This document shows positions 24,476 to 40,076 of a DNA stretch of 64,000 nucleotides, piece by piece (within the stretch, counting starts at the first letter, position 1; every line of letters starts with the position of its first letter). The translations under genes were made by a program, and so were the position numbers. Origin of the DNA: Minisyncoccota bacterium (GTDB lineage: Bacteria > Patescibacteriota > Minisyncoccia > Phycocordibacterales > CAJBRS01); the NCBI GenBank assembly GCA_017881075.1, contig JADGRH010000002.1:21654-85653 (forward strand). Direction: 5' to 3'. The notes below the pieces were generated by a model. It was not told the DNA's origin. It worked only from the letters and a program-made list of their open reading frames with translations, and did no database searches.

Positions 24476-24612
24476 GCTGGGGGTCTGGGACGATGCTCCC
24501 GATTTCTTAGTTTTGCAAAAACTGTAGAAATCGCAGTCCTGTTAAGGGCTCCCTGTTTGTTCAAGAGCAAAGCGATTGACTACAAACAGCAGTCCCCTTG
24601 GGAGGTTGGAAC
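24476..24612 (+). repeat. repeat R1, interrupted by a ~109-bp insertion between ACGAT and GTTGGAAC; left half reads GCTGGGGGTCTGGGACGATG
   Basis: seen directly. Confidence 0.85.
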
Positions 24613-24679
24613 TTTTTTGAGTAATTCAATATAAAAAAGAGGCCGCAGATTTCTCCGCGGCCCCCATAGACCTTGCCAA

Positions 24680-25246
24680 TTATTTTGCTTCGGCGTTGAT
24701 TTCTTCGATTGTGTGGCTGATCGCGGTTCTTTCCGCTTCAATCTGTTTTTCGATCCATTGCTTAACGGATAGCCCTCGTGGTGATTTGTAGACAATCACT
24801 GCCTTGATCTTGTCGTAGTAAGACAAGATAGTATCAACATCACCTGCCTTTTCCAGAAGATGGTAAAGACGATGGCTGATTGATTCTCCGGGGTCAACTT
24901 CACCCGTAATCTCGATTGTCTTCCGGGTTGAGATTTTCGGGCCAAAGAGAACGTATCGCCGACATTCTACTCTTTTGTCGATGATAGTTTTTACCAGATT
25001 ACCCGAAGCGTCGAGTAACCACGCCTGTTCTATTTCGTAGTAACCCTCCCCAAAATATTTGGAGTGAAGGTGGCGACCGACAATCTCAGGAACGATTCGA
25101 GAAACGTAAACCTGGGTTATCGAACCTTTGACGTATTTTCTCACCCAAGGAAACTCCTCGAAAAAGGCGTCAATTTTTGTAGAGGGCATCACTACTTGAT
25201 TTTCTCCCCGTTGCATTAGGACTTCTTGCGTTATCAGTTCTTTCAT
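24680..25246 (-). CDS. hypothetical protein (cassette ORF)
   Basis: 188-aa ORF. Confidence 0.45.
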   Translation of the reverse strand: MKELITQEVLMQRGENQVVMPSTKIDAFFEEFPWVRKYVKGSITQVYVSRIVPEIVGRHLHSKYFGEGYYEIEQAWLLDASGNLVKTIIDKRVECRRYVLFGPKISTRKTIEITGEVDPGESISHRLYHLLEKAGDVDTILSYYDKIKAVIVYKSPRGLSVKQWIEKQIEAERTAISHTIEEINAEAK

Positions 25247-25453
25247 CTGGTACTTTCTTAGCGCATGATTATTACCAAGCTATCAATGTCGCGTCTCGCT
25301 AGATTGATTAACCTGCCAACCATAGGATTTCCTCTCGCGTCTCACGAAAAGAAGTGCATGTGTCAATGAGCCAATACCACCATATTTTACCAAGATTTTA
25401 GGTAATTGTCAATATAATCGGATTATAATTATTGATTTCGATGTAAATTTTTA

Positions 25454-25480
25454 GCTAGGGGTCTGGTACGATGTTGGAAC
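25454..25480 (+). repeat. repeat R2 (GCTAGGGGTCTGGTACGATGTTGGAAC)
   Basis: seen directly. Confidence 0.9.
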
Positions 25481-25515
25481 TTTTGTGGCAGTTTAGATTG
25501 CTTCCATCCGATTCA

Positions 25516-25659
25516 TTAAAATCCATACCCATCCACCATCTTGGGTTTATTCACGTCTATCCTGTTAGAATATTCGTAAATCCCTACCCCTATTATTAGT
25601 AGGACAAAAAATACTATAACTATTGTCAACACTGAAATTAGAAGTTTCTTTTTATTCAT
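25516..25659 (-). CDS. small membrane protein (47 aa; not in the ORF track)
   Basis: MNKKKLLISVLTIVIVFFVLLIIGVGIYEY...; the only ORF in the R2-R3 unit. Confidence 0.2.
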   Translation of the reverse strand: MNKKKLLISVLTIVIVFFVLLIIGVGIYEYSNRIDVNKPKMVDGYGF

Positions 25660-25680
25660 CGTTGAATTATATCATTTGTA

Positions 25681-25707
25681 GTTGGGGGTCTGGTACGATG
25701 TTGGAAC
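25681..25707 (+). repeat. repeat R3 (GTTGGGGGTCTGGTACGATGTTGGAAC)
   Basis: seen directly. Confidence 0.9.
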
Positions 25708-25711
25708 TTTT

Positions 25712-26266
25712 TTACTGAACCAGTTCTAAGAATTGAGACAAAATAGCGGGTTCTTGGGATTCGGTAATATGTCCTGCGTTAGGCAGAACCACAGCATGAA
25801 CCATGATTTCAGCAAACTTCTGAGTATTTTCTTTAAATGCTCCGTATGGATCGTCATCGGAAATGATGAGTATAGATTTTGGAAGAACCGATCTTACTTT
25901 CTCAAGATTAATAGGAGTTTCAATCCAGGGCTTTGCGACTGCTTCCTCTTCTTCATCTTCCAAATTTTCTAAATTAAACCAACCCGAAACAAAAATTGCT
26001 CCGCCTACAGATTGATTTATTGTTTCCAAGTATCTCAAAATGGTCTGGCAACCAATGCTGTGACCAATAAAATAAGTTTCACTATCAGGAACACCTGTTA
26101 TTTTTGAAAGGTGCTCCACCCATGAGTTAATGACCGGCGTTTCAGTATCCGGCATAGACGGAACAATCACCTCATAATTTAACTTTTCAAGTTCATTCTT
26201 TAACCACGGAAGCCAGTTCTCGTCTGGACTCCCACCCCATCCATGAACGATAATTACTTTTTTCAT
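25712..26266 (-). CDS. alpha/beta serine hydrolase, RBBP9/YdeN-like
   Basis: IIVHGWGGSPDENW N-terminus and GHSIG nucleophile elbow. Confidence 0.6.
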   Translation of the reverse strand: MKKVIIVHGWGGSPDENWLPWLKNELEKLNYEVIVPSMPDTETPVINSWVEHLSKITGVPDSETYFIGHSIGCQTILRYLETINQSVGGAIFVSGWFNLENLEDEEEEAVAKPWIETPINLEKVRSVLPKSILIISDDDPYGAFKENTQKFAEIMVHAVVLPNAGHITESQEPAILSQFLELVQ

Positions 26267-26296
26267 AAAATTAGTATATCAAAGCGAAAAAATGTT

Positions 26297-26324
26297 TGCT
26301 GGGGGTCTGGTACGATGTTGGAAC
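26297..26324 (+). repeat. repeat R4 (consensus)
   Basis: seen directly. Confidence 0.9.
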
Positions 26325-26338
26325 CTTTATGAAAATAG

Positions 26339-26839
26339 CTATTTCTTGATTAACATATCCACAAACAAGAATCGGTGCTTGAGGAATACATGCCAAAAGG
26401 CCGCCACAAAAACCGCAGTTATAAAATAACCCACCATAAGAAATATAAAAAGCCCGAGAATGGGTAGTTCAAGTTTGTAAGTCCACACACGAAAGAAATA
26501 ATTGATGATTTCGTAGCCCGCCATTGTGATCATCGTCCAGACAAAGAAGTGCCGTAATCTTGCTTGTTGCATGAGCAGTATATGGGCCGCAAAGAGTCCG
26601 TACACAGCCGCGGCAATAGGGATTAGGGTGAGCGCACCATATCCAAGCGTATATGACCAGAGTCCAAAGGATTTTCCGTACACAAGGTCAGATAGTAGAC
26701 CGATTACTATTCCAGTGAGAACACCCCATCCGAGGATGCGTGGCACATCAGAAAGTTTTTTCTCGTAATATGCGTGAGTAACGAAAACAATAAGCTGCAC
26801 AAAAAAGAAAACTGCAAAATTTAACCAGGCTTCTGACAT
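26339..26839 (-). CDS. polytopic membrane protein (cassette ORF)
   Basis: 5-6 TM segments; start moved to MSEAW so it does not run into R5. Confidence 0.45.
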   Translation of the reverse strand: MSEAWLNFAVFFFVQLIVFVTHAYYEKKLSDVPRILGWGVLTGIVIGLLSDLVYGKSFGLWSYTLGYGALTLIPIAAAVYGLFAAHILLMQQARLRHFFVWTMITMAGYEIINYFFRVWTYKLELPILGLFIFLMVGYFITAVFVAAFWHVFLKHRFLFVDMLIKK

Positions 26840-38751: not shown

Positions 38752-38774
38752 AACATTGAGTATACCAAATTCTT

Positions 38775-38806
38775 TTGACGGATGTCTGGGACAACATTGG
38801 GACCCA
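38775..38806 (+). repeat. degenerate repeat R17 (GACGGATGTCTGGGACAACATTGGGACCC)
   Basis: about 65% identity to the consensus in the expected position. Confidence 0.6.
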
Positions 38807-38825
38807 TTAGAGACATAGAATTTAA

Positions 38826-39035
38826 TTAATTTATTTCTTCAGCCTTCTCGCCGTACAACTTCATACTTTGAGCCTGTAAAGCTTCCAACGAATTATACTG
38901 ACCAACTACCTTCATTGGGGTCAAATATGGCAAATGATGTGAGGTTCTATCGTCTTCCATTTCATAGATAGGATGTATTAGAATGAAATCATCGCCCATT
39001 TTTCTGTAGCAAGGTTTAGCTAAGGGTTGTGTCAT
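38826..39035 (-). CDS. hypothetical protein
   Basis: 69-aa ORF. Confidence 0.35.
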   Translation of the reverse strand: MTQPLAKPCYRKMGDDFILIHPIYEMEDDRTSHHLPYLTPMKVVGQYNSLEALQAQSMKLYGEKAEEIN

Positions 39036-39076
39036 ATCTAAACTCTACAATAAAAAATAATGTTTAAAAAGTGTGG

Positions 39077-39104
39077 GCTGGATGTCTGGTACGATGTTGG
39101 AACC
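39077..39104 (+). repeat. repeat R18 (GCTGGATGTCTGG variant)
   Basis: seen directly. Confidence 0.85.
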
Positions 39105-39135
39105 TGTTTGTATCAAAAGTGATATAATCAGAAAT

Positions 39136-39591
39136 ATGACTGATAATAAAGAAAATACAGGCGTAACACTGACACCAGCTCAAACTGTTGATCTATTAAT
39201 GAGGCTTTATGATGCTAGATTTAACTATATGCCAGATGGCACTGTTCAAATTGATGTTAAAGTGCAAAATCTTATAGAAGAACTTGCGACAAACGCCGAA
39301 AAATCTTTTGGTCATGTAAAAGATGCTCAAGGAAAGAGTGTTTTTGGTGAGGCTTACGAGAAATATCGTAAAGGTCAAGATGCTATATTAAAAATCAGCG
39401 ATTTAGTAGTTTTAAATCCTAATGCTACGGCTTCTGATAAACAAGTTCATATAGAAAAAATATTAAAACTTAGTGAGACTGTAACAGGTAGATTATTCAT
39501 TCAACAAAGTATAGATGAATTTAAGACCGTAACGGGAGTCGATTTGAGTGAAAATATTAAAGCAATTCAAAAACTTTCTGACCATAAATAA
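39136..39591 (+). CDS. hypothetical protein (cassette ORF); start moved downstream of the repeat
   Basis: the ORF track opens at 39073 inside the repeat; MTDNKENT is the first Met after it. Confidence 0.45.
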   Translation: MTDNKENTGVTLTPAQTVDLLMRLYDARFNYMPDGTVQIDVKVQNLIEELATNAEKSFGHVKDAQGKSVFGEAYEKYRKGQDAILKISDLVVLNPNATASDKQVHIEKILKLSETVTGRLFIQQSIDEFKTVTGVDLSENIKAIQKLSDHK

Positions 39592-39647
39592 TTTTGTTAT
39601 AAATTACAATGTATAATCAGTTAAATTAACAAGCTATGTTTGCAACA

Positions 39648-39673
39648 CTGTGGGTCTGGTACGATGTGGAACC
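39648..39673 (+). repeat. repeat R19 (CTGTGGGTCTGGTACGATG-TGGAACCC; 1-nt deletion)
   Basis: seen directly. Confidence 0.8.
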
Positions 39674-39686
39674 CATATCAATAATT

Positions 39687-40004
39687 TTATTTCCAGGGGA
39701 GGCCCTTCTGAATCAAAATATAGGGTAAATAACCGGTTATTCCATAAAAAGCTACAATAAGAACTAGAAAATCTCCGATCTCTAAGGTGGTGAAAGAATG
39801 TATCCTCCAAAATATAAAATAAGCTAAGGCAATCCACCCCACTAATGAACCAATGAAATTTAGGATCCACTGACTCATACGTAATGGCCATGGAAAATCT
39901 CTCCACTTTTTCAGAGGCAGTCCATGAATTGTGGGGGTAAAGTATGTAATAAGAAAACTGGAAAGGATTGCAACTGCCCAATATGTTATATAAATAGAAG
40001 TCAT
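39687..40004 (-). CDS. membrane protein (cassette ORF)
   Basis: 105 aa, 3 TM segments; preferred over the overlapping 39634-39981 frame. Confidence 0.4.
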   Translation of the reverse strand: MTSIYITYWAVAILSSFLITYFTPTIHGLPLKKWRDFPWPLRMSQWILNFIGSLVGWIALAYFIFWRIHSFTTLEIGDFLVLIVAFYGITGYLPYILIQKGLPWK

Positions 40005-40046
40005 ACGTTATTAGTTATTATATCAAGATTCTAATTTGAAAATACT

Positions 40047-40076
40047 GCGTTGGGGGTTTGGGACGACGCTGGATCC
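40047..40076 (+). repeat. degenerate terminal repeat R20 (GCGTTGGGGGTTTGGGACGACGCTGGATCC)
   Basis: seen directly; last copy of the array. Confidence 0.7.

What the first reader, a model, noticed from the sequence alone, without database searches (positions are those of the whole stretch)
24476..40076. A tandem array of at least 21 copies of a 28-bp repeat that separates gene-sized cassettes
GCTGGGGGTCTGGTACGATGTTGGAACC recurs in one orientation every 0.2-1.1 kb. It is usually embedded in a ~55-bp conserved context, TTTTATTTAAAAATTCCTC[repeat]TTTTTGA. Each inter-repeat unit carries typically one small hypothetical ORF on either strand; many are membrane, secreted or Cys-rich. The family hits are weak: an RBBP9-like hydrolase, DUF1566, DUF2188, a zinc-ribbon protein and a PD-(D/E)xK fold. 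Repeat length resembles CRISPR repeats, but the spacers are genes. The layout resembles integron cassette arrays or tandemly accreted site-specific insertions, yet the only recombinase nearby is a large serine recombinase. Degenerate copies (R6b, R17, R20) suggest an old, decaying array. I know of no described system with this repeat or architecture. That impression rests on memory, not on a search.
Basis: partly seen in the sequence, partly recalled or inferred. Interest (0 to 1): 0.9.

Follow-up and report, generated by a model that had tools for sequence, protein, structure and literature searches.

The report
Serine-recombinase attachment-site scars between gene cassettes
The 28-bp repeat is real: it is the attachment-site arm of a small mobile element that uses a large serine recombinase and normally inserts into tRNA-Gln genes of Patescibacteria, so the array records about 20 insertions stacked at one site, each unit carrying about one gene.

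Summary
There are 20 copies of GCTGGGGGTCTGGTACGATGTTGGAACC, all on the + strand and all between 24.4 and 40.1 kb, against 0 expected by chance. Two related, tRNA-like copies lie at 27777 and 44960.

It is not an integron, a CRISPR array or a dispersed REP/MITE. The repeat is an attachment-site half-site of the neighbouring large serine recombinase (SerRec). SerRec has more than 3000 Patescibacteria homologues. In all 8 loci examined, counting the window, it is paired with a rolling-circle Rep gene.

In 6 of 7 other loci the 3' end of the SerRec gene overlaps a tRNA gene: Gln in five, Trp in one. A copy of the repeat marks the far end of the 4-8 kb element in all 7. Repeat arrays in three other genomes also lie beside tRNA-Gln.

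The repeat equals the reverse complement of a tRNA-Gln 3' end with 5 extra bases (GATGT) between an inner and an outer motif. That is the published difference between attP-type and attB-type half-sites of serine integrases.

A syntenic relative lacks both window arrays, so they are insertions.

Still open: whether the 0.2-1.1 kb units move as mini-cassettes or are leftovers. Verdict: a new variant of a known kind, namely a tRNA-anchored island built by serial site-specific integration.

The parts
24173..24475 (.). Block 1, the conserved 300-bp module at the left end of array A. It holds a tRNA-like gene (24175-24246, minus strand), a consensus promoter (24406-24379, minus), a hairpin with T-run (24356-24327, minus), and two hairpins (24427-24475) just left of the first repeat.
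   Evidence: 88% identical to 33248-33547. Rfam tmRNA model matches the two ends only, 22-31 bits, below gathering. Cloverleaf-like fold with 3 compensatory double changes. Promoter and hairpin.
24476..24612 (+). Repeat J1. An attP-type arm split by a roughly 109-nt structured insertion between GACGATG and GTTGGAAC.
25454..25481 (+). Repeat J2
   Evidence: 2 mismatches
25681..25708 (+). Repeat J3
   Evidence: 2 mismatches
26298..26325 (+). Repeat J4
   Evidence: 0 mismatches
26859..26886 (+). Repeat J5. Followed by a shared ~75-nt leader that contains a forward tRNA-3'-end-like motif.
27350..27377 (+). Repeat J6. Followed by the same shared leader.
27777..27808 (+). attB-type arm that ends array A: GCTGGGGATTAAGGACTCGAACCTTTGAAAGT. 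It is the reverse complement of a tRNA-Gln-like acceptor 3' strand plus T-arm, without the 5-nt insert. It abuts the MgsA stop codon.
   Evidence: compared with the tRNA-Gln genes
33248..33550 (.). Block 2, the second copy of the module, at the left end of array B. tRNA-like gene 33250-33321 (minus); promoter 33481-33454 (minus).
33551..33578 (+). Repeat J7
   Evidence: 0 mismatches
34169..34228 (+). Repeat J8, with a 33-nt hairpin insertion at 34182-34214.
   Evidence: (family D10)
34613..34640 (+). Repeat J9. Its left flank carries the two-hairpin extension also seen in blocks 1 and 2.
35517..35634 (+). Repeat J10, carrying both kinds of insertion.
   Evidence: (families D10, D12)
35999..36026 (+). 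Repeat J11
36476..36503 (+). Repeat J12
36860..36887 (+). Repeat J13, with the full 19-nt left context.
37347..37374 (+). Repeat J14
37709..37736 (+). Repeat J15
38127..38154 (+). Repeat J16
38776..38804 (+). Repeat J17 (degenerate)
   Evidence: (family D6)
39077..39104 (+). Repeat J18
39647..39673 (+). Repeat J19 (1-nt deletion)
40049..40076 (+). Repeat J20 (degenerate). It is the distal junction of the intact element.
40077..44959 (.). Intact Rep + serine-recombinase element. Accessory genes on the minus strand: 40086-40577, trypsin-like 40589-41278, 41282-41500, and a zinc-ribbon membrane protein within 41555-42028.
   Evidence: Pfam. The accessory genes have homologues inside other elements, in L022, L023 and L014.
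41920..42039 (-). LOOT RNA (RF03000), inside the element upstream of rep.
   Evidence: Found at the same position in L022, L023 and L014.
42458..43501 (+). Rolling-circle replication initiator (Phage_CRI / G2P family).
   Evidence: Paired with SerRec in all loci.
43512..45047 (+). Large serine recombinase, 511 aa, with Resolvase, Recombinase and Zn_ribbon_recom domains. Its last ~21 codons read antisense into the 3' end of the M23 peptidase gene.
   Evidence: P0001 100% identical; homologues cover only 95-96% of the query; homologous to the SPbeta integrase
44960..44988 (+). attB-type arm inside the 3' end of the recombinase gene: GCTGGGGGTCTGGGACTCGACCCGAGCTT. It is tRNA-Gln 3'-third-like and abuts the M23 stop codon.

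Best explanation
The repeat is one arm, plus the crossover region, of the attachment site used by a family of 4-8 kb integrative elements of Patescibacteria. These elements encode a rolling-circle Rep protein and a large serine recombinase (LSR).

How the element normally integrates. It inserts at the 3' end of a tRNA-Gln gene. The recombinase gene then ends antisense inside the tRNA. The far end of the element is joined to the chromosome by a site of the form GCTG-(5 variable nt)-CTGG(T/G)ACGAYGTTGGAAC-T run.

What the arm is. It mimics the reverse complement of the tRNA 3' end (acceptor strand plus T-arm). It carries 5 extra bases between the inner part and the outer TTGGAAC / TCGAAC motif. 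This makes it an attP-type half-site, while the tRNA is the matching attB-type half-site. The crossover lies in or next to the invariant GCTG.

How the array forms. Each new insertion at the attB-type site pushes earlier insertions away and leaves one more attP-type arm in the same orientation. The window holds two such stacks, of 6 and 14 arms. The second ends with a still-intact element (40.1-45.0 kb).

Shown:
- the repeat and its one-sided conservation;
- its link to the recombinase and to tRNA-Gln in independent genomes;
- the 5-nt offset;
- the absence of both stacks from a syntenic relative.

Inferred:
- that the recombinase catalyses the joints;
- the exact crossover position;
- how units of only 0.2-1.1 kb arise.

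On the last point I favour recombinase-less mini-elements that carry the same attP arm and are integrated in trans. I favour this only slightly over leftovers of larger elements.
For: (1) The repeat is real and strictly local. There are 14 exact or near-exact copies against 0 expected and 20 + 2 by profile search, all on the + strand.

(2) A 16-nt exact match to the repeat's 5' half lies inside the 3' end of the LSR gene at 44960.

(3) The LSR family has more than 3000 hits, named Patescibacteria or Parcubacteria where the source names them. In 7 further loci fetched through homologues, Rep and LSR are adjacent. The LSR 3' end overlaps tRNA-Gln in L012, L019, L022, L023 and L024, and tRNA-Trp in L010.

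(4) Each of these 7 loci has one or two repeat copies 3-10 kb upstream, in the same orientation, at the far end of the element. In the tRNA-Trp case the inner part of the arm is Trp-like (GCGGGC...), while the outer part, GATGTTGGAAC, is unchanged.

(5) Arrays of the repeat in L001, L003 and L006 lie 0.4-2.3 kb from the 3' side of tRNA-Gln genes.

(6) An alignment of a repeat with the tRNA-Gln gene behind the same 157-nt duplicated flank in L006 gives GGGAC[GATGT]TGGAAC against GGGAC-----TCGAAC. Rutherford et al. 2013 (PMC3783163) place the zinc-ribbon-domain motif at positions 16-24 in attP half-sites and 11-19 in attB half-sites, a 5-bp shift. That geometry puts position 1 at about base 5 of the 28-mer and the end of the half-site at base 28, which is where conservation stops.

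(7) Conservation is one-sided. Across 27 sites from other genomes, information is near zero to the left of GCTG and high from GCTG to GGAAC.

(8) The LSR has Resolvase, Recombinase and Zn_ribbon_recom domains. It is homologous to the SPbeta integrase (PDB 9dxh, E 5e-14).

(9) The closest available relative (M23 peptidase 67% identical) has M23-AsnB-...-S24-MgsA-...-DEAD helicase in the same order with no arrays. Both window arrays are therefore insertions.
Against: - In the window neither stack ends at a full tRNA-Gln gene. Each ends in a 29-32-nt tRNA-Gln-like fragment that abuts a stop codon. The relative has no tRNA at either spot. How the stacks came to be there is unexplained.
- Canonical serine integrases do not recombine attP with a hybrid site (PMC3783163, abstract, listed). 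Repeated insertion next to an occupied site therefore needs either non-canonical behaviour or regeneration of attB.
- The left flanks of the repeats show no recognisable second half-site.
- The resident intact element's own distal arm (J20) and its attB-type arm are both degenerate, unlike the 14 near-perfect arms.
- No circular form, empty site or experiment is available.
- Sites for the conservation profile were picked by matching bases 10-27, which inflates conservation there.
Confidence: 0.78

Rival explanations
1. A serine-recombinase counterpart of an integron. The 0.2-1.1 kb units are true mobile gene cassettes. They would be small circles, each with one gene and one attP-type arm. The LSR would capture them at, and excise them from, the attB-type site, so the array would be a working gene-capture platform rather than a record of past events. 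This shares the att-site identification with the main explanation. It differs on what the units are and on whether the array is active.
For: - Cassette genes are mutually unrelated, and none matches the other loci fetched.
- The arrays hold no Rep or recombinase pseudogene fragments.
- Bases 5-9 of the arm vary freely between genomes but read GGGGT in 16 of 20 window copies. This suggests one attP lineage attached to many genes.
- Three units (starting at 26859, 27350 and 33551) share both ends: the same ~75-nt leader and the same terminator-plus-TTTTTATTTAAATTCCTC tail. Their ORFs differ.
- Single-gene units flanked by two arms also sit beside intact elements in L023 (RibD_C) and L024.
- Because every joint keeps an attP-type arm and the end of the array keeps an attB-type arm, integration products could react again.
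Against: - No circular cassette has been seen, and no second strain was available for comparison.
- The left flanks are heterogeneous, whereas a serine integrase normally needs two half-sites.
- Homologues of one cassette gene in other genomes lie in ordinary chromosomal contexts without repeats.
- Short-tract gene conversion could also homogenise the arms.
Confidence: 0.27
2. The units are leftovers. Full-length elements integrated one after another. Each later lost its Rep and recombinase core, leaving only its distal arm and the adjacent cargo gene. On this reading the array is an inert graveyard.
For: - Remnants and extra partial tRNAs left by older integrations are reported for tRNA-anchored islands (tycheposon preprint 10.1101/2020.12.28.424599).
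- Several arms are degenerate or interrupted.
- The heterogeneous left flanks fit imprecise loss of the core.
Against: - There are no core-gene fragments at all.
- Fourteen arms are near-identical, including at unconstrained positions. Yet the adjacent genes are all different, whereas repeated visits by one element lineage should leave similar distal genes.
- Each deletion would have had to end at the crossover point about 20 times.
Confidence: 0.3
3. A classical integron cassette array lacking its integrase (a CALIN), with the 28-mer forming part of the attC sites.
For: One repeat per intergenic space, in one orientation, with small hypothetical genes between the copies. GTTGGAA loosely resembles the GTTRRRY core site; that comparison rests on my own knowledge.
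Against: - There is no hairpin-forming inverted repeat around the 28-mer.
- No tyrosine recombinase is present in the window.
- Genes lie on both strands, and several have a promoter-like -10 element and a terminator hairpin of their own.
- The repeat is explained by tRNA-Gln mimicry and by its link to the serine recombinase.
Confidence: 0.02
4. A dispersed REP/MITE-like or regulatory repeat, such as a terminator or an RNA-processing signal, with no connection to recombination.
For: The repeat is followed by a T-run and lies between genes. Three copies carry hairpin insertions like those seen in nested small repeats.
Against: - All copies are in one orientation whatever the gene orientation.
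- None lies outside the arrays in the 64 kb.
- In the other loci fetched, which are of low G+C, every convincing copy lies in an array near tRNA-Gln or at the far end of a recombinase element. The exceptions are a few short contigs with no context and weak chance-like matches.
- The short form has no stable fold.
Confidence: 0.04

Closest known systems
tRNA-anchored flexible genomic islands built by serial integration (Islander-type islands; the tycheposon islands of Prochlorococcus)
   Same: - New elements insert at the same tRNA gene and push older ones outward.
- Units are separated by direct repeats derived from the attachment site.
- Intact elements carry integration and replication modules plus cargo.
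- Degraded or cargo-only units accumulate (PMC4383910 abstract, listed).
   Different: - The recombinase here is a large serine recombinase, not the tyrosine integrases that dominate those systems.
- The repeated scar is not simply a displaced partial tRNA. It is an attP-type half-site that mimics the tRNA 3' end with a 5-bp offset.
- Units are far smaller and denser (about 20 single-gene units in 9.4 kb).
- In the window the anchoring tRNA is reduced to a 29-32-nt fragment.
Staphylococcal cassette chromosome (SCC) composite islands (comparison from my own knowledge; not checked with the tools)
   Same: Large serine recombinases (CcrAB/CcrC) integrate elements at one chromosomal site. Tandem elements, including ones that lack recombinase genes, are separated by direct repeats of the integration-site sequence.
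   Different: - The SCC target is the 3' end of rlmH (orfX), not a tRNA.
- SCC elements are kilobases to tens of kilobases long.
- There is no Rep gene and no tRNA mimicry.
Phage serine integrase att sites (A118/LI, Bxb1, phiC31, SPbeta)
   Same: - The domain set is the same, and the protein is homologous to the SPbeta integrase.
- Half-sites are about 24 bp long.
- The outer motif is shifted 5 bp between the attP-type and attB-type arms.
   Different: - Canonical systems give attL and attR sites that do not react further, so they do not build long arrays.
- Here only one arm is recognisably conserved, and up to 14 arms are stacked.
Sedentary chromosomal integrons
   Same: The array holds mostly single small genes of unknown function, separated by a repeat in one orientation. 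The repeats are homogeneous within the array while the genes are diverse.
   Different: - There is no IntI tyrosine recombinase and no attC hairpin.
- Genes lie on both strands, and several have a promoter-like -10 element of their own.
- The recombination partner is a tRNA-type site.

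Membership tests
Integron / attC cassette array | An IntI-type tyrosine recombinase next to the array (may be absent in CALIN arrays) | tested here: not met
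   Pfam scans covered 57 window ORFs, including every ORF of at least 250 aa. The only recombinase found is a serine recombinase.
Integron / attC cassette array | attC sites: imperfect inverted repeats of 55-141 nt that fold as single-stranded hairpins | tested here: not met
   Six repeat-centred 98-nt stretches, folded as DNA, gave z-scores from -0.76 to +1.77 and no common hairpin. The 28-mer is not palindromic.
Integron / attC cassette array | Mostly promoterless cassettes in one orientation, read from a common promoter | tested here: not met
   ORFs lie on both strands. Several units have a -10 element, or a -35/-10 pair, and a terminator hairpin of their own next to the repeats.
CRISPR array | Regularly spaced repeats with 25-50 nt spacers, and cas genes | tested here: not met
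   Spacing is 227-1062 bp within the arrays, and the spacers are genes. No Cas family appeared in the Pfam scans.
Large serine recombinase attachment site | A recombinase with resolvase catalytic, recombinase and zinc-ribbon domains | tested here: met
   PF00239, PF07508 and PF13408. Homologous to the SPbeta integrase, PDB 9dxh.
Large serine recombinase attachment site | The site lies at both ends of the integrated element, next to the recombinase gene | tested here: met
   An attB-type arm or tRNA gene lies at the recombinase 3' end in the window and in 6 of the 7 other loci; in L014 the arm there has attP-like spacing and no tRNA gene. An attP-type arm lies at the far end in the window and in all 7.
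Large serine recombinase attachment site | attP and attB half-sites share an inner motif, with the outer (zinc-ribbon-domain) motif shifted by 5 bp | tested here: met
   GGGAC[GATGT]TGGAAC against GGGAC-TCGAAC in L006. The same offset is seen in all tRNA-Gln loci and in the tRNA-Trp locus. Rule taken from PMC3783163.
Large serine recombinase attachment site | Two inverted half-sites around a central dinucleotide | tested here: inconclusive
   Only the right arm and GCTG are conserved. The left flanks are heterogeneous.
Large serine recombinase attachment site | Recombination at the site catalysed by the enzyme | not testable with these tools
   Needs an in vivo or in vitro assay, or junction reads.
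tRNA-anchored island built by serial integration | An intact tRNA gene at one end of the island | tested here: inconclusive
   Met in L001, L003, L006, L010, L012, L019 and L022-L024. Not met in the window, where only 29-32-nt tRNA-Gln-like fragments remain.
tRNA-anchored island built by serial integration | The island is absent from the same site in relatives | tested here: met
   L025 has the same gene order with no arrays. It is a distant relative (67% identity for the M23 peptidase).
REP / MITE dispersed repeat | Copies scattered through the genome, usually in both orientations | tested here: not met
   There are no copies outside the arrays in the 64 kb. In other loci, copies occur only in arrays or at element ends. 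The whole source genome is not available.

The most novel reading that the evidence does not exclude
The array is a working gene-capture platform driven by a serine recombinase, a functional counterpart of the integron. The attB-type arm (tRNA-Gln 3' end) would play the part of attI. Every attP-type 28-mer would play the part of attC. Single-gene units of 0.2-1.1 kb would be excised as circles and re-inserted in trans by the recombinase of a resident 5-kb Rep element. Because each reaction regenerates one attP-type and one attB-type arm, the products would remain substrates.
Probability: 0.25. Interest if true: 0.85.

Novelty: new variant of a known kind. Interest (0 to 1): 0.6.

Why it matters
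Patescibacteria (CPR) have tiny genomes, and little is known about how they gain genes. This result has four consequences.

- It identifies a very common element family (more than 3000 recombinase homologues) made of a rolling-circle Rep, a large serine recombinase and often a LOOT RNA. It also identifies the family's target (tRNA-Gln) and the form of its attachment sites.
- It shows that these elements can build dense stacks of single-gene units, which would be a source of strain-level variation.
- The pairing of tRNA 3' end and mimic, with its 5-base offset, is a natural illustration of how serine integrases tell attP from attB. It gives ready-made sites for testing a new recombinase clade.
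- It gives the orphan LOOT RNA a genomic home.

If the small units prove to be mobile, this would be a second, mechanistically different way of building gene-cassette arrays.

Tried and rejected
- **Rfam.** The whole window at gathering thresholds gave only the LOOT RNA and one tRNA. A permissive scan of the long repeat form gave nothing for the repeat itself.
- **RNA folding of the long forms.** One long form gave z = -2.8 and the other z = +0.1, so there is no consistent structure.
- **Early ideas dropped.** I considered the 5' end of a tmRNA gene, tRNA 3' fragments in the forward orientation, a promoter or terminator element, and a Xer/dif-like 28-mer. I dropped all four once the link to the recombinase and tRNA-Gln appeared.
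- **Public scans for the exact repeat.** These found only 3 genome contigs and 5 metagenome contigs. The source contig itself is not in those collections.
- **Viral-contig scans.** One chance hit. With a looser 17-mer there were at least 120 hits, but in 66% G+C contigs with no Rep, no recombinase and no repeat context. They are unrelated.
- **Recombinase relatives in IMG/VR.** Four distant or truncated loci. One 5.4-kb contig showed no terminal overlap, so no circular attP was recovered.
- **Phage and plasmid databases.** Nothing above 30% identity.
- **Exact-protein look-ups.** AsnB and a cassette protein were not on record.
- **Strain comparison.** The closest relative is only 67% identical, so cassette turnover between strains could not be tested.
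- **Homologues of one cassette gene.** They are rare and, where the context was visible, are not flanked by repeats.
- **Second (left) half-site.** Inspection of the left flanks and a conservation profile gave no consistent result.
- **Overlapping contigs L002, L004 and L005.** They are identical where they overlap, so they give no information on variation.

Full report
**1. Observation**

The 28-mer GCTGGGGGTCTGGTACGATGTTGGAACC occurs 14 times with at most 3 mismatches. All copies are on the + strand, between 25454 and 39104. Shuffled sequence gives none. Repeat finding and an nhmmer profile built from these copies raise the count to 20 copies of the same type. They also find two related copies at 27777 and 44960. 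Nothing comparable occurs elsewhere in the window.

Three copies (24476, 34169, 35517) are interrupted by insertions of 33-117 nt.

The copies form two groups, at 24476-27377 and 33551-40076. Between them lie MgsA/RarA, an S24 LexA-like protein, an MBL-fold protein and asparagine synthase. Each group is preceded by a 300-bp block. The two blocks are 88% identical (24173-24472 and 33248-33547).

ORFs between the repeats lie on both strands. The weak family hits are reproduced.

**2. Organism and setting**

The window carries cell-wall and division genes, aminoacyl-tRNA synthetases, DnaB and RecR. The exact repeat recurs in three MAGs, two labelled Paceibacteria or Paceibacterota (the third is labelled only 'bacterium'), and in five metagenome contigs. 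In L001, L003, L006 and L008 it recurs two to eight times, in one orientation, every 0.1-1.9 kb. The architecture is therefore not peculiar to this genome.

Right of the array lie three features:
- a LOOT RNA (41920-42039, minus strand, 82 bits);
- a Phage_CRI-type rolling-circle Rep gene (42458-43501);
- a large serine recombinase gene, SerRec (43512-45047), with Resolvase, Recombinase and Zn_ribbon_recom domains.

No tyrosine recombinase was found in the window.

**3. The link to the recombinase**

The first 16 bases of the repeat, GCTGGGGGTCTGGGAC, recur exactly at 44960, inside the last codons of the SerRec gene. That gene overlaps the convergent M23 peptidase gene by 59 nt.

SerRec has more than 3000 homologues, named Patescibacteria, Parcubacteria or Zambryskibacteria where named at all. 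They cover only 95-96% of the query, so the last ~21 residues of the window protein are read-through.

I fetched seven independent loci through homologues.
- In all of them a Rep gene directly precedes the recombinase gene.
- In five the recombinase 3' end overlaps a tRNA-Gln gene on the opposite strand. In one it overlaps tRNA-Trp. In one (L014) there is no tRNA.
- In every locus one or two copies of the repeat lie 3-10 kb upstream, in the same orientation. They bound an element of 4-8 kb.
- In the tRNA-Trp locus the inner part of the copy is Trp-like (GCGGGCCTTGTGGGTA), while the outer part, GATGTTGGAAC, is unchanged.

The arrays in L001, L003 and L006 lie 0.4-2.3 kb from the 3' side of tRNA-Gln genes.

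**4. What the repeat is**

Read on the + strand, the 3' end of a tRNA-Gln gene on the opposite strand looks like GCTG-CCGGA-CTTGG-ACTCGAACC. That is the discriminator, the acceptor 3' strand and the T-arm. The repeat is GCTG-GGGGT-CTGGT-ACGATGTTGGAACC.

In L006 a repeat and the real tRNA-Gln gene each follow a copy of the same duplicated flank (157 nt by the repeat finder; about 160 nt in the alignment). The alignment runs GGGAC[GATGT]TGGAAC against GGGAC-----TCGAAC. So the repeat mimics the tRNA 3' end with five extra bases between an inner and an outer motif.

Rutherford et al. 2013 showed that, for the Listeria integrase, the zinc-ribbon-domain motif occupies positions 16-24 of attP half-sites and 11-19 of attB half-sites, a 5-bp shift. 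They found the same pattern for other serine integrases (PMC3783163).

Applied here, GTTGGAACC at bases 20-28 of the repeat and CTCGAACC at bases 16-23 of the tRNA arm both place position 1 at about base 5. The crossover would then lie in or next to GCTG, and the half-site would end at base 28. That is where conservation stops.

Across 27 sites from other genomes, information content is near zero to the left of GCTG. It is high at GCTG, low at bases 5-9, and high from CTGG to GGAAC. One caveat applies: the sites were selected by matching bases 10-27.

SerRec is homologous to the SPbeta serine integrase over residues 49-408.

I conclude that the repeat is the crossover region plus one attP-type half-site. 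The copies at 27777 and 44960 are attB-type arms, because they lack the 5-nt insert.

**5. What the array is**

Integration of a circle carrying (recombinase 3' end)-crossover-(attP-type arm) into (flank)-crossover-(tRNA arm) gives two joints. One is (flank)-crossover-(attP-type arm) at the far end. The other is (recombinase 3' end)-crossover-(tRNA) at the near end. This is what the seven loci show.

Further insertions at the near end would stack attP-type arms in one orientation, as seen. The region 40077-44959 is an intact element. Its accessory genes have homologues inside elements of L022, L023 and L014.

The closest available relative (M23 peptidase 67% identical) has GltX-M23-AsnB-x-x-S24-MgsA-...-DEAD helicase in the same order. 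It has 19 bp between M23 and AsnB, no tRNA and no repeat. The window therefore carries two insertions, at 24173-27808 and 33248-44988, on either side of the AsnB-MgsA backbone.

**6. The small units**

The units are 0.2-1.1 kb, each usually holding one ORF.
- Their proteins are unrelated to one another and to anything in the other loci fetched.
- Searches of the six-frame translated arrays, with an HMM of the recombinase family and with BLASTP using five Rep proteins, find no relics.
- Bases 5-9 of the arm differ freely between genomes, but read GGGGT in 16 of 20 window copies.
- Three units share both a ~75-nt leader after the arm and a terminator-plus-TTTTTATTTAAATTCCTC tail, yet carry different ORFs.
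- Single-gene units bounded by two arms also sit beside intact elements in L023 and L024.

These points favour recombinase-less mini-elements that share one attP lineage, over decayed full elements.

Other points count against active cassettes.
- The left flanks are heterogeneous.
- Canonical serine integrases do not recombine attP with hybrid sites (PMC3783163, abstract, listed).
- Homologues of one cassette gene lie in ordinary contexts elsewhere.
- No circle and no second strain could be examined.

I leave this open: roughly 0.27 for mobile cassettes, 0.30 for leftovers, and the rest undecided within the att-site framework.

**7. Rejected readings**

- Integron: no IntI, no attC hairpin, genes on both strands, and several units with a promoter-like -10 element and a terminator hairpin of their own.
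- CRISPR: only the repeat length fits.
- REP/MITE or terminator: the copies have one orientation whatever the gene orientation, they are strictly local, and there is no stable fold.

**8. Comparison with what is known**

In logic, the closest match is the tRNA-anchored flexible island built by serial integration. In the tycheposon islands of Prochlorococcus, incoming elements push older ones into the island and partial tRNAs and remnants accumulate. SCC composite islands, built by large serine recombinases, are a second match; that comparison rests on my own knowledge.

Several features are new here:
- the recombinase clade and its Rep partner;
- the tRNA-Gln target;
- the nature of the scar, an attP-type half-site that mimics the tRNA arm;
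- the density of single-gene units;
- the host phylum.

Literature searches found no description of this element family or array.

**9. Unexplained**

- Both window stacks end in a 29-32-nt tRNA-Gln-like arm that abuts a stop codon. Neither ends at a full tRNA gene.
- Three arms carry structured insertions.
- A two-hairpin extension to the left of some arms is 90% conserved between species.
- A forward-oriented tRNA-3'-end-like motif follows some arms.
- A tRNA-like gene, with a perfect consensus promoter upstream, sits at the left end of each stack.

**10. Verdict**

This is a new variant of a known kind, with interest 0.6. The reading as a serine-recombinase counterpart of an integron is not excluded (probability about 0.25) and would be of high interest.

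Noticed in passing
window 41920-42039 (-); L022 8519-8644 (-); L023 8663-8774 (-); L014 8818-8926 (-): The LOOT RNA (RF03000) lies inside the Rep + serine-recombinase element, roughly 0.1-0.6 kb upstream of rep on the opposite strand, in 4 of the 8 elements examined. The main text of the paper that first reported the motif does not discuss it. It may act in replication control, or be a single-strand origin of these elements.
   Followed up: partly
window 24175-24246 (-) and 33250-33321 (-): Two copies of a 72-nt tRNA-like gene. Features: a G3:U70 pair, a 4-bp D-hairpin with a 3-nt loop, a 9-bp 'anticodon' stem with loop CCUACCA, and a normal T-arm. Three compensatory double changes between the copies keep the long stem paired. 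ARAGORN misses it. The Rfam tmRNA model matches only its two ends, below threshold.
   Followed up: partly
window 24406-24379 (-) and 33481-33454 (-); hairpins 24356-24327 and 33427-33406: Each 300-bp block has a perfect TTGACA-16-TATAAT promoter on the minus strand, followed by a hairpin with a T-run and then the tRNA-like gene. The promoter points at the chromosomal gene beyond the island (the SWIB gene, or AsnB). In the relative, AsnB sits 19 bp after M23, so the block may supply a replacement promoter.
   Followed up: no
window 27777-27808 and 44960-44988: Both stacks end in a tRNA-Gln-like acceptor-plus-T-arm fragment only 29-32 nt long, directly abutting the stop codons of MgsA and M23. 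There is no full tRNA-Gln gene there. The syntenic relative (L025) has no tRNA at either spot.
   Followed up: partly
window 34182-34214, 35530-35562; 24496-24604, 35569-35626: Two kinds of structured insertion lie inside three repeats. One is a 33-nt GC-rich hairpin after GCTGKGGGTYTGG. The other is a 58-109-nt multi-hairpin segment between ACGAT(G) and GTTGGAAC. Neither was found in the other loci fetched up to that point.
   Followed up: partly
window 24427-24475, 33502-33550, 34564-34612; L003 3915-3983: A two-hairpin extension, TACGTCGAAAGTCTGCTGATTTCGACG followed by CGATTTTTACGCTTAAAAATCG, lies directly left of some repeats. It is about 90% identical between the window and a different Paceibacteria MAG.
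   Followed up: no
window 26918-26940, 27409-27430, 33609-33633, 36918-36940; L007: A forward-oriented tRNA-3'-end-like motif, AGGTTCGATCCCTACCCACGGAG, lies 25-40 nt after the end of several repeats. It is part of a leader shared by several units. It could be a half-site for another element in the opposite orientation.
   Followed up: no
L019 1-9003: The region left of the rep gene in this locus is packed with defence-type genes: a ThsB-like TIR protein, a LexA-methyltransferase fusion and a BsaWI-type nuclease lie inside the element, between the distal repeat (4724) and rep. DpnI and an Mrr/STAND NTPase lie just beyond the distal repeat.
   Followed up: no
window 29889-30746 (+): An MBL-fold gene gives its best Pfam match to the anti-Pycsar Apyc1 family (E 2e-27). 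It lies in the chromosomal backbone between the two stacks. No gene with an MBL-fold Pfam hit is called at the corresponding position in the syntenic relative L025.
   Followed up: no
L006 1436-1607 and 4509-4678: A block beginning with a tRNA-Gln 3' fragment is duplicated (157 nt by the repeat finder, 91% identical). One copy lies before a repeat and the other before the real tRNA-Gln gene. Identity ends just after GCTG. This resembles the 300-bp blocks of the window.
   Followed up: partly
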